Source: Escherichia phage Halfdan
Sequence record: NC_072811.1
Reading direction: 5' to 3' (one strand)
Length of the DNA stretch: 42,858 bases
Shown: in pieces, positions 722 through 36,061 of the stretch
Numbering within the stretch: position 1 is the stretch's first letter
How the letters are laid out: every line of letters starts with the position of its first letter
The notes under the pieces: model-generated
Database searches by the model: none
Seen by the model: the letters and a program-made list of their open reading frames with translations, nothing else
What the model was told of the DNA's origin: nothing
Program-made: the position numbers and the translations under genes

Positions 722-3186
722 TATAGTTTCTCCAACGTCGAATTAAGGCCCAAGAATTGTACGCCTTGGGGGTCGGTAACGGTAGCCCGGAAACCAAGTT
801 TAATATTCGCATCGCCGGTTAACACGAATTGCCCTTGTTGGTATTCGGTGTTATCGAAATGCGCCACTTGCGCCGACGCATTCAAAGTCGGCAATACGCC
901 CGGAATGTTTGGCGAACGAAGCCAGCCAACCGAACCGGATACACGAAGGGTTGCGGGCGGTGCCTGATACGTCGCATCTTTAGACCAGTATTCGCACTGG
1001 CCGAAAGGTGCCGGAACCATCATATCGAACACTTCCCAACCAAGCGACGCCGCCAGTTGTTGCGAATCGACAACCGCTTTGTACGGCGTAACCCAAACCC
1101 CGTTAATCAAATCGCCTTCGTACTTGCTAAAACCGGTTTGCTTGACGATAGTAGCGGGCGGGCGACCGGTTGCCGCAACACTTGCCGGAACGCCGACCAT
1201 ACCCGCGTCGGATACGAACGCCGCGAAGTAAACGCCGTCTTGAATTTCGCGTTGAACGCGCAACGTCGTTTGCGGAAGCGGAATCGTCGCAACGATAACA
1301 CCTTGTTCGTAATCTTCAATCGACTTTGCCCACACAATGACCGTCGAAGCCGCCAGCGAACCCGGAAGCGGGGCCGACCAAGCAAGGTCGCCGTACAGGC
1401 TATCGACAACGTTAAAGGTCAGCGATTGGACGGCTTCCGGGTATTCAGACCCAAGGCCGACAACGACAACCGTATTCGAAGGCGTAGTCGTAGAACGCTT
1501 TTCGTAACTGTTCACGGTTCGGATATAGCCGATATACGTGTCGCCAGCGCCAAGCGGCGGCGTTGTATACGTTATCGTCGTGCGACCCGACATAAAGATA
1601 TAGTCGGAATCGACAGGCGTAAACGGATACTTGCCGTAAGCCAGTTCGTAACCAACGACGTAAATATCGGCGGATTGCGGCCAGTCAAAGCGAACGCGGG
1701 GTTTGTTGGTGCCCGGTTCGACAGCGGTAACGCCCGAAGTCGCGTACAGAACCGACAACGGCTTCGGTTGGGTAACATCTGGTACGATGATTTGACCGCC
1801 GCCGTCAATCGGCTTTAAGTCCATATCGTCGGAATAAATGTCGTCGCTGTATTCAACTAGCGTTAGTTCGATGCCGCCGGGGTCGGTATTGGTCGGCGGC
1901 GTCATTTTCCAATCGGTAATTTGAAACAGCTTCGAAATCCAACCAAGTTGGGGCAAGTTCAGCGGTACAACGTCCCAAACTTCGTAATTAAATACCGTCC
2001 ATTTGCACGGAAGGGTAATCGTCTTTTCCAGCCGCGCACGGCGTAAGAAAATGGTTGCCAGTCGTTGCGCCGTAATCGGCGAAGTCGTGAAGTTCAACAC
2101 AATATCTTTGAATTGCTGAATACCGCCGTCTTGTGCGATATATTCAGCGCCGGATACTGGCGGGAAGTCGTTAAATACCCAACCGTTCGTAGAATCAAGG
2201 AAAGTACCCTTGACGCTGTTAAACGATTGGTCGGTCGGCGTGCGCGGTTGAAGCGACGGATTATCCCGCAAGTCTTCGGCCGTAATCTGGCGCGAAACGG
2301 CGGTACGGGCCGCACCGACAAACAGGCGGTAGACGCCTTCCGTCCATACGACAGTACCGGCACAAGCCGAAAGCATTTGCGAAATTGTGTCGCCGTTCTT
2401 GGTCGAAAGTTCGACAACACCGTCGATTGTATATCGGCCGTCGCAAAGACTGGCGGCCATGCTTGCCGGGATTTGGTCGGAAATGTCGGCGGCGGCTTTA
2501 ACGGTTTCCCAATCCATTTCGGCGGAAGTTGCGCCCAAGCCGTCTACCGAAGTCATAAAGTCGGCGGTGCAAAGCGCACCGTTGTTCGTCCACTTGGTCA
2601 AGCCGTCGCGGGGGTCGTATACCGGTTTACCCTTAACGTCGAATTGCACGTTAGGGCGGCCGTTCTTCCAAGCGGTTTTGTCGTATTTCAGCTTAACGAC
2701 CGCATACGCGCAACCGGTCAAAATGCAATCGGCGGTGTATTCGCTGAAAGTCGCGTGCAACTGCGGGTCAACGGCGGTTTGCGAACCGTCGTAATACCAC
2801 CATTCATACCAGCCCGCCGCAACATCCGGCCCGGCTTCGCCGTCGAAATAGATTTGCGTAACTTCTTGGATTCGGTGCGCCGCAATTACAACGACCATCC
2901 AAAGATATTCGTAACCGTCGCCGGATACGTTGGCGTAACTAACGACGCCAGAAATCCGCGCTTTCCCATAGACCATACGGCGCGGGGCGTCGGCCTGAAA
3001 GGTAAGCGATAACGGGTTCGTCTGGTACGTCGTACCAACCGGGTTCGGTGACGATTGAACCCCGGACATATTGCGCGACATTGCCAGCGTTAAGCCGACG
3101 GCGACAATCGTACCGATAACAAGCGCGGTCGTCGTACCGACCACGGCCGCAACGGCGATTGCAATTACGGGAAGTACGGCGGGCAT
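721..3186 (-). CDS. large tail-tip / host-specificity-like protein
   Basis: about 821 aa from ATG 3184-3186 (track ORF extends to a TTG at 3201); hydrophobic N-terminus; assignment by size and synteny only. Confidence 0.45.
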   Translation of the reverse strand: MPAVLPVIAIAVAAVVGTTTALVIGTIVAVGLTLAMSRNMSGVQSSPNPVGTTYQTNPLSLTFQADAPRRMVYGKARISGVVSYANVSGDGYEYLWMVVVIAAHRIQEVTQIYFDGEAGPDVAAGWYEWWYYDGSQTAVDPQLHATFSEYTADCILTGCAYAVVKLKYDKTAWKNGRPNVQFDVKGKPVYDPRDGLTKWTNNGALCTADFMTSVDGLGATSAEMDWETVKAAADISDQIPASMAASLCDGRYTIDGVVELSTKNGDTISQMLSACAGTVVWTEGVYRLFVGAARTAVSRQITAEDLRDNPSLQPRTPTDQSFNSVKGTFLDSTNGWVFNDFPPVSGAEYIAQDGGIQQFKDIVLNFTTSPITAQRLATIFLRRARLEKTITLPCKWTVFNYEVWDVVPLNLPQLGWISKLFQITDWKMTPPTNTDPGGIELTLVEYSDDIYSDDMDLKPIDGGGQIIVPDVTQPKPLSVLYATSGVTAVEPGTNKPRVRFDWPQSADIYVVGYELAYGKYPFTPVDSDYIFMSGRTTITYTTPPLGAGDTYIGYIRTVNSYEKRSTTTPSNTVVVVGLGSEYPEAVQSLTFNVVDSLYGDLAWSAPLPGSLAASTVIVWAKSIEDYEQGVIVATIPLPQTTLRVQREIQDGVYFAAFVSDAGMVGVPASVAATGRPPATIVKQTGFSKYEGDLINGVWVTPYKAVVDSQQLAASLGWEVFDMMVPAPFGQCEYWSKDATYQAPPATLRVSGSVGWLRSPNIPGVLPTLNASAQVAHFDNTEYQQGQFVLTGDANIKLGFRATVTDPQGVQFLGLNSTLEKL

Positions 3187-6899: not shown

Positions 6900-7514
6900 T
6901 TAGCTTTGTCCGTACAATGCTTCGGTGAATTCAAGCGAAGCGGAATGCAACATTCCGTCGATACTCACTTCGCCGCCCCCGGTAAGTTGACACGATACAA
7001 CCGGCGCAATCGACGAAATCGCGGTTCCGTTTACTGGCGGGTTGCGCAATGGCGGAAGAATCGGAATGTTCGCGTTCCCGCTGGCATCCGACGAAACAGC
7101 CGCCGTAACAATATGCATTCGATACATGCCGTCGGAACACAAGTAAGAAATTTGGTCGCCGACTTCAAGAATCGCAATGCTTGGCGTCCAACCAGCGGAA
7201 GCCAGAACGGCCCCCGCTTGGTTTGCGCCGTTAACCGTCGGCGTGCCCGGTTCGGTACTGCGACGCGGGATATACGACAGGTCGTAAATGTGGGCAACTT
7301 CCGCCCCGCCCCGCAACATCGCTTTAATTGCTTTCAGTTGTCGGCCATACTTGGCGGATAGGCTGTCGTATCCGAACGTAAGTTTCCAGCGTGCGCCCGG
7401 AAGTTCGACAACCTGAATGCCGCCAGTGAAAGGCGACGCCGCGATGCCCACATTATTAAGAATGTCGGCTTTTGCCGTATCCGGCGCGAATAGCGTAGTC
7501 CGTAAATCAATCAT
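6900..7514 (-). CDS. putative distal tail protein
   Basis: 204 aa; ATG 7512-7514 directly follows tape measure stop; position typical of a Dit-like protein. Confidence 0.4.
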   Translation of the reverse strand: MIDLRTTLFAPDTAKADILNNVGIAASPFTGGIQVVELPGARWKLTFGYDSLSAKYGRQLKAIKAMLRGGAEVAHIYDLSYIPRRSTEPGTPTVNGANQAGAVLASAGWTPSIAILEVGDQISYLCSDGMYRMHIVTAAVSSDASGNANIPILPPLRNPPVNGTAISSIAPVVSCQLTGGGEVSIDGMLHSASLEFTEALYGQS

Positions 7515-10500
7515 TTAGTTTGCCGCCTGTTTAATGACTTTCGACCAAGTACCGCCCATGCGGATACTATCCATAATGTCGGCTTGCGTCTTCTGCGAAA
7601 TTGCGGTCGCCGCTTTTTCCAGCGAATCGGCGGAACTGTCGCCGGAACCGCCCTGTACGGTAATATTGTTGTCGATATCGAATGCGACCATAACAACACC
7701 GCCGCCACCATTACCGGCATTATCGCTATTTTGGTTCACTGCGGCAACCGAACCGCCGTTGTTCATCGCTTCAAGCGTTGCGCGGTGTTTGCGCGTAGCC
7801 GCCGCATTAACGACGAATTCTTGACCGTGAACCACGCCCGCAACTTCGGACGTACCGACGTCGCCGGTATAGCCACCAGTTTTAAAGCCCTTGGCCGCGA
7901 AGCCCATTACCATACCGAACAACACGGCAAGCGCCGCGATACCGGCCACGGCCGCACCGCCGAACGATGCCGCCGAAGTCACGGCCGCCGCTGGTGCCCA
8001 AGCTGCCGTAGTCGTGGCCGCCGCTGCGGTCGATTGTGCGGTCGTCGCAGTGATAGCGGTTTGCGCTAACGCTTGGTTGACGACGTATTGAATACCGACC
8101 TTGATAAGTGCGCCGATAAGTTCCGAAAGAATTTGCTTCGAAACTTGCGACAACGTATCTTGCAGGTTTTCACCGTACACGATAGCGCGGCCGATGCTGT
8201 TTGCGAATCCGTCAACGAACCCGGTAAAGAAGTTACCCCAAGCGCCCGACAGACCTTGCAACACGCCTTGATAGTTCGAAACAAGTTGGCCCATACCGGC
8301 GACAATTGCGTCGTTAAATCCGGCCGTACCCATTTGCATTTTAAGATTTGCGGCATCGACGTTCAGTTGTTGCATTTTAATGCCGTACTGTTCCGCCGAA
8401 ATTGCGCCGTTCGCCAACGCCTGATTATACGCCTGTTGTTGCGCCGTCAAGTCGGCTTGTGCGCCCTTGGTTTCGCTGTAAATCTTGTTCAGAACGTCCG
8501 ATTTCTTTTGCGCTTCGTCAAGTGCAACGGTCGTCTTACGGATGCTTTCGGCCATAGCTTCGCTAAACGGCAAGCCCGCTTGCAATGCGGCGTTTCGCGC
8601 CTGAATAACGTTTCGTTCCGCTTCCATCGCCGGGCCGACTTTCGACAGTACGTCGAATTGTTCTTGTGCCGCCTTGTTGAACGAATACAGCGGGTCGGTT
8701 GCGCTGGCGTATGCGTCTTTCGCCTTGGCGACCAATGCGTTATATTTTTCAAGGCTAATTGCGCCAGTGTCATAAAGCGCCTTGGCGACAGCCATTGCGG
8801 CGTTATATTCGCGCAAAGGTGCGGTAACTTCTTTAAGAGCCTTGTTGTAATCTTTCTGTTCTTGCGTCAACTTGGCTTTCTTCGTTTTGCCGTCGTCGCC
8901 CGAAAGCTGGTTCGTACCGGCACCGCGAAGGTTCGACTTAGCCGCTTCGGCTTCCGCTGCGCGGCGGGCTTCCGAAATCTTGCGGGCACCTTGCATAATG
9001 GCGTCGGTCATACCGCCAACGTAATCGGTTTGGAAGCCCGACACGGCGGCTTGTGCGACAGCCGAACCGGCGTCTTTCGCTTCCTGTTCGATTTGCATAC
9101 GCGGCAATTCGATTTTCGCTTTGTCAAGTGCGCCGTTCAACTTGGCGACCAGTTCCGGGGCAACACCTTCGGCAAGCGACGCAATGCCGCGAATGCCGAT
9201 TTGCCAGCTATTCACCAGCGTTTCAACAGCCGTTGCGCCAGCGTTCACGACAAGCGCAAACAGCCCTTTCATAAGGGCCGGGAAGTTGTCCCAAACGGTT
9301 TTAACGACGTTGTACGCGGAAACCCAAGCGCCGATATAACCGTTAACAGTCGCCTTAACTAGCGACAGAATGGTATCGCCAAGCGAACGGAAGTTTTCAC
9401 CCCAACCGTTAGTTTTTTCGTTAATCCAATCAATCGCCTTACCCCAAAGCGATTGGATTTCGGCACCAACGGCGCTAAACCCGTCGCCGACAATCGAAAG
9501 AACCGACTTCGCAACGTCTTGCAGGTTAACCAGACCGTCGGAAGTAACCGAAATCTTGTCGCCGAATACGGTAAGGGCTGCGATAGCGGTTGTAATGGCA
9601 ATCGCGATAAGGCCAATCGGGTTGGCCGCTAGGGCCGCCGTGAAGCCAATTACGGCGGTCGTCGCTGCGCCAAGGGCGGATAGCAGGGCTGGCCCGAACG
9701 CGACCAGCAGGGCCGCGCCTACGGCCACAAGCGCCACGGTCAACAGGTCGAGATTGTTACCAAGCCAAAGAATCGCCTTCGCCAGTGCCGACGATACGCC
9801 GGTCGCTTTATCCAGCTTACCGACGAATTGGCCGACTTGGTTGTTAAGTACGGTCATCGCTTGCCCGATTGTGGGCGTCGTTTTCGCGAAGGTATCGTCG
9901 ATTTGCTGTTGAATAAGCTGGAACGCTTTAAACAGAACTTCCGACGTAATCTTGCCTTCTGTACCGAGTTTTTTAACTTGGTCAACCGGTTTGTTAAGCG
10001 CCTTGGCTACGGCGTCCAATACGACGGGCATGTTTTCCGACACGGAACGGAATTCGTCGCCTTGCAACTTACCGGAGTTGAACGCCTGCGAAAGCTGCAA
10101 CAGGGCCGACGATGCTTCCGACGAAGTGGCACCGGATACGACCAACGCTTTGTTAATGGTTTCGGTCATTCGCAAAGTATCTTCTTGCGATTTACCCATT
10201 AACTTCAACGACCGGTCAAAGCGCGTAAATGCGGTCGCGGTTTCGTCAACCCCGGCACGCGTCTTGTTCGCAAGTTCGTACAGGCGGTCGGTAAGTTCGT
10301 TAACTTGCGCTTGCGACGACGAAACGTTTTGCAATTTGTTTTGCAAAGCGGTATAACTGTCGGCGTACTTCAACAGGGCACCGGTTGCGGCGGTAATCGC
10401 GGCAATCGAAAGCGCACGCTTTGCGAAGTCCATAAACGAATTAGTCGTTTTCTGGTTCTGTTCTTCCAACTTCTTTTGCGCCTGTTGCAGACGAATAGAA

Positions 10501-10964
10501 GCCAGTTCCGCACGCGACGCGGCGGCGGCACTGTTCGATTGTGCGGTCGAAGTCTTAGCCGTTTCGGTCGCTAACTTCGCTTCGGCGGTCGCGGTGTTAG
10601 CGGTTGCGGTAGCCAAGCGTTGTTGCGCCGTCGCCGTATTGGTCGAAGCGGTAGCCAAACGGGCTTGCGCGTTCGCGGCGTTTGCGGCCGACTGTTCAAC
10701 GCGGTTTTGCAAGATAGCGGCTTGCGCGGCCGTGGTATTGGCCGCCTGTTGCGCTTGTGCAAGTTTGGTCGAAGCCGACGCCGCTTGGTTCATTGCGGCC
10801 GAAAGCGATTGCAACCCCTTACCGTCAAGCATGGCAAGTTGTTGTTTCAGCGTTTCAACTGCGGTATGCGCGTTGCGGGCCGACGCGGCGATTCGGTCAA
10901 TCTTCGCCGGGATAGACGCCGCTACGCCGTCCGTAATTTCAATAACGATTTGTTCGTCGGCCAT
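7515..10964 (-). CDS. tail tape measure protein
   Basis: 1149 aa; Ala/Gln-rich N-terminal region with tandem peptide repeats, central hydrophobic segments, location after chaperone genes. Confidence 0.85.
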   Translation of the reverse strand: MADEQIVIEITDGVAASIPAKIDRIAASARNAHTAVETLKQQLAMLDGKGLQSLSAAMNQAASASTKLAQAQQAANTTAAQAAILQNRVEQSAANAANAQARLATASTNTATAQQRLATATANTATAEAKLATETAKTSTAQSNSAAAASRAELASIRLQQAQKKLEEQNQKTTNSFMDFAKRALSIAAITAATGALLKYADSYTALQNKLQNVSSSQAQVNELTDRLYELANKTRAGVDETATAFTRFDRSLKLMGKSQEDTLRMTETINKALVVSGATSSEASSALLQLSQAFNSGKLQGDEFRSVSENMPVVLDAVAKALNKPVDQVKKLGTEGKITSEVLFKAFQLIQQQIDDTFAKTTPTIGQAMTVLNNQVGQFVGKLDKATGVSSALAKAILWLGNNLDLLTVALVAVGAALLVAFGPALLSALGAATTAVIGFTAALAANPIGLIAIAITTAIAALTVFGDKISVTSDGLVNLQDVAKSVLSIVGDGFSAVGAEIQSLWGKAIDWINEKTNGWGENFRSLGDTILSLVKATVNGYIGAWVSAYNVVKTVWDNFPALMKGLFALVVNAGATAVETLVNSWQIGIRGIASLAEGVAPELVAKLNGALDKAKIELPRMQIEQEAKDAGSAVAQAAVSGFQTDYVGGMTDAIMQGARKISEARRAAEAEAAKSNLRGAGTNQLSGDDGKTKKAKLTQEQKDYNKALKEVTAPLREYNAAMAVAKALYDTGAISLEKYNALVAKAKDAYASATDPLYSFNKAAQEQFDVLSKVGPAMEAERNVIQARNAALQAGLPFSEAMAESIRKTTVALDEAQKKSDVLNKIYSETKGAQADLTAQQQAYNQALANGAISAEQYGIKMQQLNVDAANLKMQMGTAGFNDAIVAGMGQLVSNYQGVLQGLSGAWGNFFTGFVDGFANSIGRAIVYGENLQDTLSQVSKQILSELIGALIKVGIQYVVNQALAQTAITATTAQSTAAAATTTAAWAPAAAVTSAASFGGAAVAGIAALAVLFGMVMGFAAKGFKTGGYTGDVGTSEVAGVVHGQEFVVNAAATRKHRATLEAMNNGGSVAAVNQNSDNAGNGGGGVVMVAFDIDNNITVQGGSGDSSADSLEKAATAISQKTQADIMDSIRMGGTWSKVIKQAAN
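10570..10700 (-). repeat. in-frame tandem repeats within tape measure gene
   Basis: about 42-nt units encoding repeated (Q/E)A(R/K)LAT(A/E)(S/T).NTATA-type peptides. Confidence 0.5.
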
Positions 10965-10973
10965 GATTTCGCC

Positions 10974-11411
10974 TTATTTCAGTTTTAGTTTATACCGCTG
11001 AACAGCCTTGCGAACCTTGGCTAAACAGCGTTCTACAAATCCGGCCGATTGTTGGGCCGAATAACCGTCGTTCAATCGCTTGATATACGGTTGATTGTTC
11101 GTTATATAAATCTTTTGTCCGGGCTTCTTATTAGCCAATACGGCTTTTGCTTGCGCGATTGTTTCGGCGGCCGATGCGTTGCGCGTCGAACCCTTTTCGC
11201 CGGGATAATGCGCCTTGCCCACATTAGAAGACGGCGCGTCTAAGGTGACTTCCCAAGACGACAGTGCCTTCGACGTATCAACGGGCGTCGTATATGCCAG
11301 TTCAGCGACGGCGGTAACAGCAACAAAAACGGCCGCTTCGCTGGCGGCCGTCTCAATTTCGGCCTTTTTCTTTTCTAGCCGATTGGCTAAGTCTAAAAGA
11401 TTACCGGCCAT
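10974..11411 (-). CDS. hypothetical tail-associated protein
   Basis: 145-aa ORF, ATG 11409-11411, between chaperone and tape measure genes. Confidence 0.4.
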   Translation of the reverse strand: MAGNLLDLANRLEKKKAEIETAASEAAVFVAVTAVAELAYTTPVDTSKALSSWEVTLDAPSSNVGKAHYPGEKGSTRNASAAETIAQAKAVLANKKPGQKIYITNNQPYIKRLNDGYSAQQSAGFVERCLAKVRKAVQRYKLKLK

Positions 11412-12206
11412 GTTTAGGAACCTTTACGGGTTGTTTCGACTGTTTGGGTTGCTTTGACTCCAAACGTTTTAAGTGTTCGGTATCCATCCGTCGAATATGA
11501 AACAACAGTGATTCGGTTTGTTCTTCGTCGAATTCGAAAGCCCTTGCGTATCCGATGATTGACGACCAACTAATCGGCGTTAATCCTAACGAATGCGAAC
11601 GTTCGGAATCTAAATCGAAGAACGCTTGCAAATACAGTTGTAACCCTAATTCTAGTTCTGGTGCATTTGCTATCCGGTCGGGCATCGGTTCACCCGACCG
11701 GAACGCCTGTTGTGCTATGGTCTTTTCGTGCGGCCCTAACTCCAACAGATACAACAGAACTTCGGTTAGTTTTTTGCTTCGGCTTCCTGCGCTTCTTCCT
11801 TGAACATTGCGGCCGACTTCGCTTGGTTCTGCAAGTCGTCGTACAGTTCCGGCAAACGGCCGAACAGCGACAGCGCATTCGCACGGTTGAACGGCGCGAA
11901 GCCGGTATCTTCTTCGTTGCCGGTTACGTCGGAAAGTTGGACGTTTTCCCAACCTTTCAACACGGTATCGACGAATACGCCCATGAATACGCGTTCGGCA
12001 ACGTCGTTCGCCAGCGTACCCATTTCGATTTGACGACGGTACGGACGGGTTGCCGCTTCAAGCGCACGCGTGTAACGCGTATTCGCTTTCGACATACGGG
12101 AAATATGGAAGCCGGGAACGGAACCGTCGTCGTTCTGGCCGAATTGGATAACTACGCCTTCGACTTCTTTGGCGGTATCGGTAGCGAACTGTTTGGAAAG
12201 CGACAT
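11401..12206 (-). CDS. tail assembly chaperone G-T fusion via -1 programmed ribosomal frameshift
   Basis: track ORF 11401..11952 is in the -1 frame and open across the end of the G ORF; shift at 11769-11775 gives a ~268-aa product; the first ~60 codons of the track ORF are Arg-rich and unlikely to be translated independently. Confidence 0.5.
11766..12206 (-). CDS. tail assembly chaperone (G-like)
   Basis: 146 aa; coding strand ends GCA AAA AAC TAA; the -1 frame stays open for a further 123 codons. Confidence 0.6.
   Translation of the reverse strand: MSLSKQFATDTAKEVEGVVIQFGQNDDGSVPGFHISRMSKANTRYTRALEAATRPYRRQIEMGTLANDVAERVFMGVFVDTVLKGWENVQLSDVTGNEEDTGFAPFNRANALSLFGRLPELYDDLQNQAKSAAMFKEEAQEAEAKN
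11769..11775 (-). other. slippery heptanucleotide A_AAA_AAC (candidate -1 frameshift site)
   Basis: minus-strand sequence AAAAAAC immediately before the G stop codon. Confidence 0.5.
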
Positions 12207-12271: not shown

Positions 12272-13801
12272 TTACTGCGGCATTGCCTTGTTTGGCAAGT
12301 ATTCGAAGAATTCAACCAACAGCGTATGGCCGAATTTCGATTCTGCGCCGTTGGTATCCAACGGAACAGTAATCGGGTTGTCTTTTTCGACGTTGATACG
12401 ACCGCCGCCAAGCGACAACAGCGGGATATCGTAAATCATGCCGCGATTGTTTGCCGCAAGAATCGCGTAGATACCAACGTCGGCGTTATTGCGTACCGCT
12501 TGGGTTGCCGCAACAGTGGTAAAGTAAGCGGTAACAGACCCGCCGACTTCGAAGTCGCCCGCCGAAGTATCGAACGCACCCAATACCCCGACCGCTTTGT
12601 TCGGCGTGATATTGTTGTTCACTTCGATAGAACCTTCGGAAATGTAGCCGAACAGCGGGGTCGGATTCGGGTTCGCCGAATTGTTGACCGACATACGGAT
12701 ACGGTAAACGTCGGACGAAGTGTTATACGCCGATTGACCAAGCGCCGAAACACGCGTACCCGCCTTGACGCCAACCGCACCGGTACGCTGTTCGTTGTCG
12801 CACGCTACAAAGGTAACGTCGGCGTTCAGCTTGTCGGCTTGCGGAATGTTCAAGGTGAATTCGTTTGCAACGGCACCGACAAGGTATTCGGATTGCATAC
12901 CGTCGGCGTCTTGGCCTAGCGTGCGTTCCAGTTGGTACGAACGGCGCTTAATCAGGTTGGCCGACTTTTCGTTACGAATGACGGTGCCGAAGTATACTTG
13001 CAGCGTGATACCGGTTCCGGCTTCGGTTACAGGCGTCCAAGTGGCGTTGTCGAGCGTAACGGTTTTGCTGTCGGTCGAAATGGCCGCAACGCGGGCGTAA
13101 CCAACGTTGTTGGCAAACGAAGTGCCAGCGCCATCGCCGCCGATGAACACCCATTGACCCGGAATCAGGCCAAAGGCGAACGAACCGGCCGTCGCGGTCA
13201 GGGTCAGCAGACCGGCCGCATAGGTCAACGCAACGTCGCCCGATGCGAATTCGTGACCGACGCGGGTAAGTGCGCCGTTCGGTGCCGCGCCTTCGTCGGA
13301 CAACGCGCCCCATACGGTAACGGCGGTTGCGATTGCGTCGCTAACCTTTTTCATGCCGTTGTTTGTGGGCACCGCGAAACCGCTTGCGACAACCAAGTCG
13401 CCAGCCGCGAAGATACCCAATCCCGAAGCGGCGGTGTACTTGATTTCGTCGCCGTCTACGCCGGTCATCGAAACTTTAGCCGCATTCAACGGCGCGGTTT
13501 GCGGTTGCTGGCGGGCATCGGCAAAGCAAAAGCCTTGCATAAGCCGGGTAATGTTGTCGGCCGTTACGTCGGTGTTGAAACCGCCCGAAGCGTCCAAGTC
13601 GGTAACGGTGCCTTTCTTCCGCTGGCGCGAAGGGTCAATCGGGGCGCGTGCCACGGTCGTAACTTCGCCGCCGAAGTCCGAATAGCTGTTCGGTTCCAGC
13701 CCGTACCAAATGGGCGTAGCCGGAAGCTGTTTCAAGCATTCTTCTTCGGCGAACGAAAGGCCCGAAATATTGCTGTCGATTTTGTTAACGTCGCAGACCA
13801 T
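12272..13801 (-). CDS. major tail protein (tube; sheath not excluded)
   Basis: 509 aa; ATG 13799-13801 with AAGGA SD; lies between connector genes and chaperones. Confidence 0.45.
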   Translation of the reverse strand: MVCDVNKIDSNISGLSFAEEECLKQLPATPIWYGLEPNSYSDFGGEVTTVARAPIDPSRQRKKGTVTDLDASGGFNTDVTADNITRLMQGFCFADARQQPQTAPLNAAKVSMTGVDGDEIKYTAASGLGIFAAGDLVVASGFAVPTNNGMKKVSDAIATAVTVWGALSDEGAAPNGALTRVGHEFASGDVALTYAAGLLTLTATAGSFAFGLIPGQWVFIGGDGAGTSFANNVGYARVAAISTDSKTVTLDNATWTPVTEAGTGITLQVYFGTVIRNEKSANLIKRRSYQLERTLGQDADGMQSEYLVGAVANEFTLNIPQADKLNADVTFVACDNEQRTGAVGVKAGTRVSALGQSAYNTSSDVYRIRMSVNNSANPNPTPLFGYISEGSIEVNNNITPNKAVGVLGAFDTSAGDFEVGGSVTAYFTTVAATQAVRNNADVGIYAILAANNRGMIYDIPLLSLGGGRINVEKDNPITVPLDTNGAESKFGHTLLVEFFEYLPNKAMPQ

Positions 13802-24654: not shown

Positions 24655-25257
24655 TTACAGGGTACGCCACACGCCCGCGCCCTTGACGCCGGGGAAGCCC
24701 CACGGTGCGCCGTCTTCGACGGTGCGAACGGCGAATTCGCGAATCTGGCGGGTAGCCGGAACGACGTTGCCTTTCGCCGGGGATTTCTTCGGCGCGGGGA
24801 TTTCTTCGGCGTAACGTTCGTTGGCGCTGGTGACAGTGGAAGCCAGCGACTTCGCCGGGTTCGGCTTGGCTTCGGTCGCGGCCACGAAGAACGATTGCCC
24901 TTTTTCCAGCTTGTCGAACGGGTAAGTTTCGGTCGAACGGCCGCCACGGGAAGCGCCCGGCATGGCAACGTCGGCGACAATTGCGAAGTTCGATGCGACG
25001 GCCGGTGCGGCGGAAGCGCCTTCGGTGCCGGTGTTCTGGTTGGTGTTCTGTTCGTTCATAGCTGCGATGCCCTTTTCGGTTGCACGGGTAGCGAAGTCGC
25101 CCCCTTCGTTGGTGATGGTTTCGTTCTGTTCGACCAGACCTTCGGCGACCAGAACTTTCGCGGCCTTGGCGGAAGCGAAGGCGTAACCGGCGTCGCCGGT
25201 AGTTGCGGTAACGATGGCGGCCAGCAGTTCCGAAGCCGCTTTGTTCAGTTTAGCCAT
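24655..25257 (-). CDS. hypothetical protein, independently transcribed
   Basis: 200 aa from ATG 25255-25257 with AAGGAG SD; own TTGACG-N17-TAGAAT promoter and downstream hairpin terminator. Confidence 0.55.
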   Translation of the reverse strand: MAKLNKAASELLAAIVTATTGDAGYAFASAKAAKVLVAEGLVEQNETITNEGGDFATRATEKGIAAMNEQNTNQNTGTEGASAAPAVASNFAIVADVAMPGASRGGRSTETYPFDKLEKGQSFFVAATEAKPNPAKSLASTVTSANERYAEEIPAPKKSPAKGNVVPATRQIREFAVRTVEDGAPWGFPGVKGAGVWRTL

Positions 25258-35251: not shown

Positions 35252-36061
35252 ATGGCTCAATTGATGCAAGCGTTCGACGCACGTAACGTAGACCCGACCC
35301 AAGGCGTCGGCGGTTTGCCAATCGGCAAGCATCCGGTTATCGCTATCAAGTCGGAAGTAAAGCCGACCAAGGATAACGATTCCGGTTATCTGCAATTCGA
35401 CTTGCAGGTTATCGACGGCCCGAACAAAGGTGCGGTCGGCGCTTACCGCCTGAACCTGTACCATACCAACCCGCAAACCGTCGAAATCGCGCACAAACAG
35501 TTGTCGGCTTTGTGCCACGTTACCGGCGTGTTCCAAGTGCAAGATTCGCAACAGTTGCACAACATCCCGTTTATGGTCGAAGTCGGGTTGCAGAAAGAAC
35601 CGAACCCGAACAAGTACACCGACGTAAAACGCGTGTTCGATATCAACGGTAACGAACCCGGCCACGCCAACGGCAACGGTCAAGCCGCGCAGAACAACGG
35701 CGGCCAAGCCGGTAACAACGGCGGTTCGTGGGGCAACCAGCAACAGAACGGCGGCCAGAACCAGCAGCAAAACAACGGCGGCAATAACGCCGGTTGGGGC
35801 GGTCAATCGCAAGTCGCGAACAACGTTCCGATGCCGGATAACAACGGCGGTAACAACCAGAACCAAGGCCAGAACAACGGCGGCGGTAATCCGGGTTGGG
35901 GCCAGAACAACGGCAACAACGGCCAGCAGGGCAACCAGCAGGGCGGCGGCTGGCAAGGCAACCAGCAGGGCAACCAAGGCCAGCAGCAAGGCAACGGCGG
36001 CGGCTGGAACCAGAACCAAGGCAACGGCGGCGGCCAACCGGCTTGGGGCCAACCGCGCTAA
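35252..36061 (+). CDS. putative ssDNA-binding partner of Sak4 with G/N/Q/W-rich C-terminal tail
   Basis: 269 aa from ATG 35252; globular N-terminal ~140 aa then ~130-aa low-complexity tail with periodic GW; functional call by context. Confidence 0.4.
   Translation: MAQLMQAFDARNVDPTQGVGGLPIGKHPVIAIKSEVKPTKDNDSGYLQFDLQVIDGPNKGAVGAYRLNLYHTNPQTVEIAHKQLSALCHVTGVFQVQDSQQLHNIPFMVEVGLQKEPNPNKYTDVKRVFDINGNEPGHANGNGQAAQNNGGQAGNNGGSWGNQQQNGGQNQQQNNGGNNAGWGGQSQVANNVPMPDNNGGNNQNQGQNNGGGNPGWGQNNGNNGQQGNQQGGGWQGNQQGNQGQQQGNGGGWNQNQGNGGGQPAWGQPR

What the first reader, a model, noticed from the sequence alone, without database searches (positions are those of the whole stretch)
10570..10700. Tandem ~42-nt repeats inside the tape measure gene
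Repeated units encode Ala/Thr/Gln-rich 14-residue peptides in the N-terminal part of the tape measure protein. Such repeats are common in these proteins and could change tail length by unit gain or loss. Low novelty, recorded for completeness.
Basis: seen in the sequence. Interest (0 to 1): 0.2.

Follow-up and report, generated by a model that had tools for sequence, protein, structure and literature searches.

The report
Double-heptad repeats in tape measure protein
The flagged 42-base repeats are real but ordinary: they encode 14-residue (two-heptad) units of a long predicted helix near the start of the tail-length ruler protein of Escherichia phage Halfdan.

Summary
A 42-nt (14-aa) periodicity lies in the minus-strand gene 7515..10964. 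DNA identity at lag 42 is 0.55-0.63, and 0 of 5000 codon shuffles reach it. The three clear units are aa 99-140 (window 10545-10670), with degenerate units on both sides.

The gene is the tape measure protein (TMP) of phage Halfdan, genus Lokivirus (Pfam TMP_3 E 3e-63; phrog_3336 E 1e-234). It sits between the tail chaperone/tail completion genes and the distal tail protein gene.

The basic period is the heptad. Hydrophobicity shows sharp peaks at 3.5 and 7 residues and none at 11. AlphaFold2 gives one continuous helix over aa 48-172, which is 18 heptads. The 14-mer arises because Leu/Thr alternate at position a and Arg/Lys alternate with Asn at position g.

Unit number is identical in all Lokivirus genomes compared, so there is no gain or loss within the genus. 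In the wider related group the segment has a modal length, and most variants differ from it by multiples of 7 aa. One 63-bp deletion in a relative is flanked by a 10-bp direct repeat.

The most likely role is a coiled-coil ruler segment at the head-proximal end of the tail. Novelty and interest are low. One minor extra: the repeat core is a local divergence hot spot between Halfdan and a close relative.

The parts
7515..10964 (-). Tape measure protein gene, 1149 aa
   Evidence: ORF and translation. Pfam TMP_3 E 3.1e-63. phrog_3336 E 1.1e-234. Protein identical to the annotated TMP of Halfdan_Juelich_variant and Shy.
10545..10670 (-). Three clear 42-nt / 14-aa units (aa 99-140): AQARLATASTNTAT, AQQRLATATANTAT, AEAKLATETAKTST
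   Evidence: Register listing and lag-42 statistics. Pairwise DNA identity 0.60-0.71 and aa identity 0.50-0.79.
10671..10712 (-). Degenerate upstream unit, aa 85-98 LQNRVEQSAANAAN. Its counterpart in Loki is a good unit, NQQRLATETARTAT.
10461..10544 (-). Two degenerate downstream units, aa 141-168 (AQSNSAAAASRAEL, ASIRLQQAQKKLEE)
   Evidence: The RLQQAQ motif is conserved across the wider group.
10449..10823 (-). Whole heptad-periodic helix, aa 48-172 (18 heptads), which contains the repeats
   Evidence: AlphaFold2 gives a single helix H48-172 with pLDDT about 80-96 over aa 60-160. Hydrophobicity power peaks only at periods 3.5 and 7.
10824..10964 (-). Conserved N-terminal segment, aa 1-47 (MADEQIVIEITDGV...). 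It has a non-helical start followed by helix 17-44.
   Evidence: Conserved across Lokivirus, Septimatrevirus, Kilunavirus and other relatives. AF2 secondary structure.
10606..10658 (-). Pair of exact 11-nt direct repeats TTGGCTACCGC (10648-10658 and 10606-10616), 42 nt apart. These are a possible substrate for slippage by one unit.
10515..10706 (-). Repeat core that is a local divergence hot spot against the close relative L011
   Evidence: 69% nt identity here against 93-94% in the flanks. 35 of 64 codons differ (17 synonymous, 18 nonsynonymous).
9807..10379 (-). TMP_3 domain, aa 196-386, immediately after a hydrophobic segment (aa ~179-199)
10974..11411 (-). Tail completion protein gene (145 aa), directly upstream of the TMP gene
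   Evidence: phrog_169 E 1.1e-33. Annotated the same way in relatives.
11766..12206 (-). Tail assembly chaperone gene (146 aa). The heptamer AAAAAAC lies at 11769-11775, just before the stop codon. The downstream frame 11401-11952 carries Pfam Phage_TAC_18.
   Evidence: The same motif is described for Loki in PMC5313236.

Best explanation
The 42-nt repeats are the DNA trace of old internal duplications within a coiled-coil-type helical segment of the tape measure protein of Escherichia phage Halfdan (Lokivirus). The protein segment aa 48-172 is a single long alpha-helix of 18 uninterrupted heptads. Position a alternates Leu and Thr, position d is mostly Ala, and position g alternates Arg/Lys with Asn. 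That alternation makes the visible unit a double heptad of 14 residues.

By analogy with solved siphophage tails, three copies of the TMP would run as a helical bundle through the tail tube lumen, with the N-terminus at the head-proximal end. At about 1.5 Angstrom per residue this segment would supply roughly 18-19 nm of a ruler of about 172 nm. Selection acts on helix periodicity and length, and only loosely on the outward-facing residues. This explains three things: the units have drifted to 60-71% DNA identity, relatives change the segment mostly in whole heptads, and the core evolves fast.

What is shown: the periodicity, the TMP identity, the helix prediction, the conserved unit number in the genus, and the indels in relatives that mostly fall in whole heptads. 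What is inferred: trimeric coiled-coil packing, the position in the tail, and the contribution to tail length.
For: - Periodicity beyond chance: 0 of 5000 codon shuffles reach the observed value.
- TMP identity and gene context.
- Hydrophobicity power at period 3.5 is 50.3 in Halfdan, against a shuffle mean of 7.6; 6 of 5000 shuffles reach it. The family mean over 22 unique sequences gives 61.2 at 3.5 and 52.0 at 7, with all other tested periods (including 11 and 14) at or below 5.2.
- Residues by heptad phase: a = LALAAVALTLTLTSALL, d = GAAATLSAAAAAEAAAAQ, g = SQKAQRNRNRNKKNRRKK.
- AlphaFold2 predicts one helix over aa 48-172 with high confidence.
- The distance from the N-terminal anchor D12 to Y204 is 192 aa in 31 loci (22 unique sequences) whose repeat regions are as little as 25% identical pairwise.
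- Of 13 other distinct distances, 4 differ by exact multiples of 7 (-56, -21, +14, +21). Another 5 form a second class offset by one residue (158, 172, 186, 270, 284) whose internal steps are 14 or 84.
- A 63-bp (3-heptad) deletion between 96.5%-identical relatives is flanked by the 10-bp direct repeat AACCGCAGCC.
- Ruler relation in the genus: the Loki tail measures 176 +/- 3 nm and its TMP has 1161 aa, which gives 1.5 Angstrom per residue (PMC5313236; length).
- The TMP N-terminus lies at the proximal tube end as a trimer in T5 and 80alpha.
- Halfdan and Pavpe01 differ at 39 synonymous and 32 nonsynonymous codons in aa 57-168, so the constraint is on the protein and not on the DNA sequence.
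Against: - The core residues are weakly hydrophobic (Ala, Thr), so stable self-association of this segment alone is uncertain.
- The structure prediction was a monomer with a 6-sequence alignment and cannot show oligomerisation.
- No tail length has been measured for Halfdan. The published length for KL1 (about 160 nm for a 1272-aa TMP, PMC3483164) does not fit the ruler rule, although it is only an approximate figure.
- Four of the 13 variant segment lengths (51, 103, 146, 163) do not fit the heptad rule. They come from the most divergent proteins, where the sequence anchors may not be equivalent.
- The strong conservation of one modal length (192) suggests a constraint beyond plain ruler length. 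This explanation does not account for it.
Confidence: 0.8

Rival explanations
1. The repeats form a register-tolerant docking zone and are more than passive ruler. In 80alpha the three TMP N-termini bind one monomeric tail completion protein asymmetrically, which staggers their helices by 6-7 residues. A sequence that repeats every 7/14 residues would let chains staggered by one heptad still pack equivalently. The repeats could alternatively be iterated binding sites for the tail assembly chaperone.
For: [quoted passage not shown]
- Halfdan encodes a tail completion protein homolog directly upstream of the TMP gene (phrog_169 E 1e-33).
- The TMP starts with a non-helical, strand-like segment QIVIEIT followed by helices, an arrangement comparable to 80alpha.
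- The heptad segment begins about 48 residues from the N-terminus and keeps a constant modal length of 192 aa in very diverged relatives. That fits a specific structural role.
Against: - There is no direct evidence for stagger or for binding in this phage group.
- The 14-residue unit is specific to Lokivirus. Septimatrevirus-like relatives show heptad periodicity but other higher-order lags.
- Lineages with segments 35-56 aa shorter or 77-91 aa longer exist.
- Multimer modelling was not possible with the tools available.
Confidence: 0.12
2. The array is an actively variable tandem repeat (contingency-type locus). Frequent slippage would generate tail-length variants within populations.
For: - Two in-phase exact 11-nt direct repeats lie 42 and 126 nt apart in the array.
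- A relative shows a 63-bp deletion between 10-bp direct repeats.
Against: - Units are only 60-71% identical at the DNA level, and TRF finds no array.
- Three independent isolates at 99% nt identity (Halfdan, Juelich variant, Shy) have identical TMP proteins.
- Unit number is unchanged across the genus, down to 47% aa identity in the N-terminal region.
Confidence: 0.03
3. The periodicity is a by-product of low-complexity Ala/Thr/Gln composition, or of a feature on the opposite strand, and has no meaning for the protein.
For: The region is compositionally biased, and long opposite-strand ORFs exist (10594-11001 and 10620-10988 on the + strand).
Against: - Codon shuffles that keep the composition never reach the observed lag-42 identity.
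- The register is conserved without gaps in Pavpe01 and Loki.
- The overlapping ORFs on the opposite strand and in the alternative frame have no Pfam match.
- There is no Rfam or tRNA hit anywhere in the window.
Confidence: 0.02

Closest known systems
Tape measure proteins of Lokivirus phages (Acinetobacter phage Loki gp15, IMEAB3, vB_AbaS_D0; Pseudomonas phage Pavpe01)
   Same: These are orthologous proteins of 1149-1161 aa. They share the gene order (chaperone with frameshift, tail completion protein, TMP, distal tail protein). The 14-aa units sit in the same register and in the same number. The Loki paper already notes a predicted coiled coil in gp15 (PMC5313236).
   Different: The units are better preserved in Loki, where paralogous units are 74% identical in aa against 43% in Halfdan. 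Residue 11 of the unit differs by lineage: N,N,N,K in Halfdan, Q,Q,Q,R in Pavpe01, R,R,R,R in Loki.
TMP N-terminal regions of Septimatrevirus, Kilunavirus and related phages (SCUT-S3, PaMx42, KL1, VCLv11, Kmi2C)
   Same: Same architecture: a conserved ~45-aa N-terminus, an Ala/Thr/Gln-rich heptad segment with QRLATEQQRTA-type motifs, a DRAALAALRLQQAQ motif, a hydrophobic segment, and then the TMP_3 domain. Many have the same 192-aa spacing.
   Different: Higher-order periodicity is 21-35 aa and not 14. Segment length varies among them: D-to-Y distances of 158, 171, 206, 213, 270 and 284.
11/18-residue aromatic-marked TMP repeats (mycobacteriophage and lactococcal TMPs; Belcaid et al. 2011 PMC3271669; Mahony et al. 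2016 PMC5099701)
   Same: They are internal tandem peptide units within a tape measure protein. They are proposed to allow tail-length change by duplication or loss. Experimentally, periodicity mattered more than side-chain identity.
   Different: The period here is 7/14, with no power at period 11. There is no Trp or Phe marker; the segment aa 48-172 contains no aromatic residue (phase listing). The array is short, with 3 clear and about 3 degenerate units against 29 in TP901-1. It lies near the N-terminus.
Head-proximal TMP N-terminus in solved siphophage tails (80alpha gp56, T5 pb2)
   Same: [quoted passage not shown] The protein is trimeric and helical. In 80alpha it contacts the tail completion protein.
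   Different: No sequence homology was shown between those N-termini and this one. PDB sequence matches of the Halfdan TMP cover the TMP_3 region or aa 23-362 of other TMPs (9occ_M, 8rk3_A, 8vjh_Q). No structure of this repeat segment exists.

Membership tests
Tape measure protein (Pfam TMP_3 PF20155 / phrog_3336) | Match to the family profile above the curated threshold | tested here: met
   213.4 bits against a cutoff of 41, E 3.1e-63, aa 196-386. phrog_3336 E 1.1e-234 over aa 101-1145.
Tape measure protein (Pfam TMP_3 PF20155 / phrog_3336) | Position in the tail module: after the frameshifted chaperone pair and before the distal tail protein | tested here: met
   Chaperone at 11766-12206 with AAAAAAC, tail completion protein at 10974-11411, TMP at 7515-10964, distal tail protein at 6900-7514. 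The order is the same in annotated relatives.
Tape measure protein (Pfam TMP_3 PF20155 / phrog_3336) | Protein length proportional to tail length (about 1.5 Angstrom per residue) | tested here: inconclusive
   This holds for the congener Loki (1161 aa, 176 +/- 3 nm). No measurement was found for Halfdan. The approximate 160 nm reported for KL1 does not fit its 1272 aa.
Heptad-repeat coiled coil | 3.5/7-residue periodicity of hydrophobicity with a continuous phase | tested here: met
   Power 50.3 at period 3.5 against a shuffle mean of 7.6 (6 of 5000 shuffles reach it). The family mean peaks only at 3.5 and 7. The local phase drifts slowly over aa 48-146, within -46 to -149 degrees.
Heptad-repeat coiled coil | Apolar residues at positions a and d | tested here: met
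   Position a is L/A/V/T and position d is mostly Ala. The core is weak, being rich in Ala and Thr.
Heptad-repeat coiled coil | Helices actually associate (trimer in the tail lumen) | not testable with these tools
   Only a monomer prediction was possible. The trimer is inferred from T5 and 80alpha.
11/18-aa aromatic-marked TMP repeats (Belcaid 2011; Mahony 2016) | Unit length of 11 (or 18) residues | tested here: not met
   Power at period 11 is 0.0 in Halfdan and 1.4 in the family mean. The best peptide lag is 14.
11/18-aa aromatic-marked TMP repeats (Belcaid 2011; Mahony 2016) | Trp or Phe at a fixed position of each unit | tested here: not met
   There is no W, F or Y in aa 48-172 (sequence; phase listing).
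Variable-number tandem DNA repeat | Highly similar head-to-tail DNA copies | tested here: not met
   Unit DNA identity is 0.60-0.71. TRF reports no 42-nt array at minimum score 30.
Variable-number tandem DNA repeat | Copy number differs among close relatives | tested here: not met
   The number is the same in Halfdan, the Juelich variant, Shy, L011, Pavpe01, Loki and D0. Length changes are seen only in other lineages of the wider group.

The most novel reading that the evidence does not exclude
The strictly heptad-periodic, self-similar segment just after the TMP N-terminus may be a register-tolerant zipper. Three TMP chains would be anchored asymmetrically to a single tail completion protein, and so staggered by about one heptad as seen in 80alpha. 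The repeat would let them still form a regular bundle. A one-heptad stagger would also mix the alternating Leu and Thr a-layers. This would explain why one segment length (192 aa from D12 to Y204) is kept across genera while the sequence drifts, and why changes come in whole heptads.
Probability: 0.1. Interest if true: 0.45.

Novelty: new member of a known kind. Interest (0 to 1): 0.15.

Why it matters
It matters little on its own. The gene is already annotated as a tape measure protein, a coiled coil was already predicted for the Loki ortholog, and internal repeats in such proteins are well known.

This check adds a precise description. The unit is a double heptad, which differs from the published 11/18-residue aromatic-marked TMP repeats. 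It also adds comparative evidence that this N-proximal segment has a preferred length in a broad group of Pseudomonadota siphophages and mostly changes in whole heptads.

That gives a simple design rule for engineering tail length in these phages: insert or delete multiples of 7 aa in aa 85-168. It also provides a small test case for how TMP N-termini cope with asymmetric attachment at the neck.

Tried and rejected
- **Tandem Repeats Finder.** Run on the whole window at minimum score 30, it found no 42-nt array. The units are too diverged, so autocorrelation and shuffling were used instead.
- **The search for homologous proteins with aa 1-400.** It returned only 39 proteins and not even the query itself. 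Relatives were collected instead from the phage collection and from IMG/VR.
- **A first anchor script mis-assigned starts.** It picked internal MA[N] motifs as start codons. It was redone with a conserved N-terminal D anchor.
- **Concerted evolution of units.** Loki paralogous units (74% aa identity) are far more alike than Halfdan-Loki orthologous units (46%, the same as non-orthologous pairs at 44%). Unit position 11 changes in parallel within lineages. This is equally explained by well-preserved ancestral units that drifted in the Halfdan lineage, so it stays undecided.
- **Tail length against TMP length across relatives.** Only Loki has a careful measurement. The KL1 figure is approximate and inconsistent. 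No test of the N-segment's contribution was possible.
- **Assembly collapse as the cause of the L030/L031 length difference.** This was judged unlikely, because the junction repeat is only 10 bp and the two contigs differ at 3.5% of flanking positions. It cannot be excluded for the truncated metagenomic proteins P0001 and P0003.
- **Features on the opposite strand and in the alternative frame.** No Pfam match for four overlapping ORFs, no Rfam family and no tRNA.

Full report
**What the window is.** The window is 42,858 bp long. Its tape measure gene is 99.1-99.4% identical in DNA to Escherichia phage Halfdan_Juelich_variant (PP954860) and Escherichia phage Shy (OR996328), both classified in Lokivirus. 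Olsen et al. list phage Halfdan (MH362766) at exactly 42,858 bp (PMC7552041). The window is therefore almost certainly the Halfdan genome. This is inferred from the length match and the near-identity.

**The observation.** The finding lies inside the minus-strand ORF 7515..10964, which encodes 1149 aa.
- Autocorrelation of the coding strand around 10570-10700 peaks at lag 42 (0.56) and lag 84 (0.515), with all other lags at or below 0.40.
- In a scan of the whole gene over all in-frame lags, the ten strongest signals all map to gene nt 189-294, at lag 42 or 84.
- None of 5000 codon shuffles reached the observed lag-42 identity of 0.548. The highest shuffle value, taken over all lags, was 0.48.
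- In register, the clear units are aa 99-112 AQARLATASTNTAT, aa 113-126 AQQRLATATANTAT and aa 127-140 AEAKLATETAKTST (window 10545-10670). Degenerate units flank them at aa 85-98 and aa 141-168.
- The units share only 60-71% DNA identity, which is why Tandem Repeats Finder misses them.

**What the gene is.**
- Pfam TMP_3 (PF20155) matches aa 196-386 at E 3.1e-63. PHROG 3336, tail length tape measure protein, matches aa 101-1145 at E 1.1e-234.
- This is the same order as in Loki, Pavpe01 and KL1.
- Overlapping ORFs on the other strand or in another frame have no Pfam match. The window holds no Rfam family and no tRNA.

**What the repeat is at the protein level.**
- Kyte-Doolittle hydrophobicity over aa 48-172 has sharp Fourier peaks at 3.5 and 7 residues only. 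In Halfdan the power at 3.5 is 50.3 against a shuffle mean of 7.6, and 6 of 5000 shuffles reach it.
- In the mean of 22 unique relatives the power is 61.2 at 3.5 and 52.0 at 7, with every other tested period, including 11 and 14, at or below 5.2.
- Sorted by heptad phase, one position is L/A/V/T (position a), the position three residues later is mostly Ala (d), and the position just before a is basic or Asn (g).
- Leu alternates with Thr at a, and Arg/Lys alternates with Asn at g.
- AlphaFold2, run on aa 1-230 with a shallow 6-sequence alignment as a monomer, predicts one uninterrupted helix from residue 48 to 172. pLDDT is about 80-96 over residues 60-160. A non-helical N-terminus and a helix at 17-44 come before it.

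**Comparison with relatives: within the genus.**
- Halfdan, its Juelich variant and Shy have identical TMP proteins.
- Pavpe01 (74% aa identity over the first 200 residues) and Loki (47%) align through the array without any gap, so the unit number is the same. The same holds for vB_AbaS_D0 and the IMG/VR contig L011.
- The array therefore predates the genus and is not changing in copy number there.

**Comparison with relatives: the wider group.** Septimatrevirus, Kilunavirus KL1, Variovorax phage VCLv11, Klebsiella phage Kmi2C and 49 IMG/VR loci share the same architecture. I measured the distance from the conserved Asp near the N-terminus (D12) to the Tyr that opens the TMP_3 region (Y204).

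| Distance class | Values | Notes |
|---|---|---|
| Modal | 192 aa | 31 loci, 22 unique sequences; repeat regions as little as 25% identical pairwise |
| Exact multiples of 7 from 192 | -56, -21, +14, +21 | 4 of 13 other distinct values |
| Second class, offset by one residue | 158, 172, 186, 270, 284 | Internal steps of 14 or 84; these sequences share a one-residue-longer loop near residue 48 |
| Do not fit | 51, 103, 146, 163 | From the most divergent proteins |

- The count of 9 of 13 values in the two classes has a binomial P of about 0.003. This figure is not corrected for phylogeny.
- One clean event is visible between L031 and L030, which are 96.5% identical outside the gap. It is a 63-bp (21-aa) deletion flanked by the exact 10-bp direct repeat AACCGCAGCC.
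- Halfdan itself carries in-phase exact 11-nt repeats 42 and 126 nt apart.
- Unit loss and gain do therefore occur in this protein family, in whole heptads.
- The modal length is strongly preferred, however. In the 192 class, total TMP length varies mostly downstream, where the C-terminal part ranges from 946 to 1029 aa.

**Likely mechanism.**
- The tape measure protein sets tail length at about 1.5 Angstrom per residue. This is established for lambda and TP901-1 (my own knowledge, and PMC5099701).
- Loki fits the rule: 1161 aa and 176 +/- 3 nm.
- In solved siphophage tails the TMP is a trimer in the tube lumen, with its N-terminus at the head-proximal end (T5; 80alpha).
- I infer that aa 48-172 of the Halfdan TMP is the head-proximal stretch of this helical bundle, about 18-19 nm of roughly 172 nm.
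- I also infer that the 14-aa units are relics of duplications of a double heptad, kept in phase because out-of-phase changes would break the coiled-coil register.
- The basic g stripe fits the positively charged TMP facing a negative lumen, as described for 80alpha. This point is analogy only.

**Rivals.**
- A contingency-type variable repeat is unlikely. The units are too diverged, and copy number is fixed among close isolates.
- A composition artefact or an opposite-strand feature is excluded by the shuffles, the conservation and the empty searches.
- A more interesting reading remains possible. In 80alpha the three TMP N-termini bind one tail completion protein asymmetrically and are staggered by 6-7 residues. 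A self-similar heptad array would tolerate such a stagger. Halfdan has the tail completion gene immediately upstream and a strand-like TMP N-terminus. Nothing here tests this reading, and I give it about 10%.

**Comparison with what is known.**
- Published TMP repeat classes have 11- or 18-residue units marked by Trp or Phe (Belcaid 2011, PMC3271669; Mahony 2016, PMC5099701).
- The Halfdan array fails both defining features. It has no period-11 signal and no aromatic residue.
- It works like those repeats but is not a member of that class. It is a heptad-based example of the general phenomenon.
- The Loki paper already mentions a predicted coiled coil in gp15.

**A side observation.**
- L011 is a close relative of Halfdan. 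It is 93.4% identical in DNA over the 5 kb upstream and 93-94% identical in the TMP flanks. In the repeat core (gene nt 259-450, window 10515-10706) identity is only 69%.
- There, 17 synonymous and 18 nonsynonymous codon differences fall in 64 codons. The N-terminal flank has 12 and 1 in 86 codons.
- In the core, L011 resembles Pavpe01 at the protein level.
- The core is therefore a hot spot, caused by patch recombination, within-array conversion or relaxed constraint. Which of these applies is unresolved.

**Verdict.** It is biologically ordinary and of low novelty.

Noticed in passing
window 10515-10706 (gene nt 259-450) compared with L011:5259-5450: The repeat core is a local divergence hot spot. 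Halfdan and the IMG/VR relative IMGVR_UViG_3300022742_000020 are 93-94% identical in DNA in the flanks and over 5 kb upstream, but only 69% identical in the core. Both synonymous and nonsynonymous differences are raised there, and the length is unchanged. At the protein level the L011 core looks like Pavpe01.
   Followed up: partly
window 10545-10712 (residue 11 of each 14-aa unit; heptad position g): Residue 11 of successive units changes in parallel within lineages: N,N,N,K in Halfdan, Q,Q,Q,R in Pavpe01 and L011, and R,R,R,R in Loki. This hints at gene conversion between units or at coordinated selection on one face of the helix.
   Followed up: partly
window 11769-11775 (minus strand), at the end of the chaperone ORF 11766-12206: The slippery heptamer AAAAAAC sits immediately before the chaperone stop codon. 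The overlapping frame 11401-11952 carries Pfam Phage_TAC_18. This is the expected -1 frameshift giving a G/GT-like chaperone pair, as proposed for Loki. The Halfdan_Juelich_variant record annotates the two parts as separate genes.
   Followed up: partly
window 10974-11411 (minus strand): A tail completion protein gene (phrog_169) lies between the chaperone pair and the tape measure gene. This is an HK97/SPP1-like order and differs from the lambda order.
   Followed up: partly
window 12272-13801 (minus strand): The tail tube protein is unusually long at 509 aa. The 266-position Pfam Phage_tube_2 profile is spread over residues 12-482, which implies large insertions or an added domain.
   Followed up: no
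whole window; records PP954860 and OR996328: A 99%-identical variant of this E. coli K-12 phage is recorded with Pseudomonas taiwanensis as host. The next relative, Pavpe01, infects Pseudomonas syringae, and other genus members infect Acinetobacter. Either the host range is unusually broad or a record is wrong.
   Followed up: no
window 35923-35995 and 24778-24811: TRF reports other short tandem repeats. One is a 12/21-nt CAAGGCAACCAG-type array (score 53-63). The other is a perfect 17-nt duplication, CGGGGATTTCTTCGGCG x2.
   Followed up: no
window ~7880-8090 (gene nt ~2877-3087, aa ~960-1030): There is a weak lag-33 (11-aa) DNA self-similarity of 0.49-0.50 in the Ala/Thr-rich, hydrophobic C-terminal part of the TMP. 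It is the only other periodic signal in the gene.
   Followed up: no
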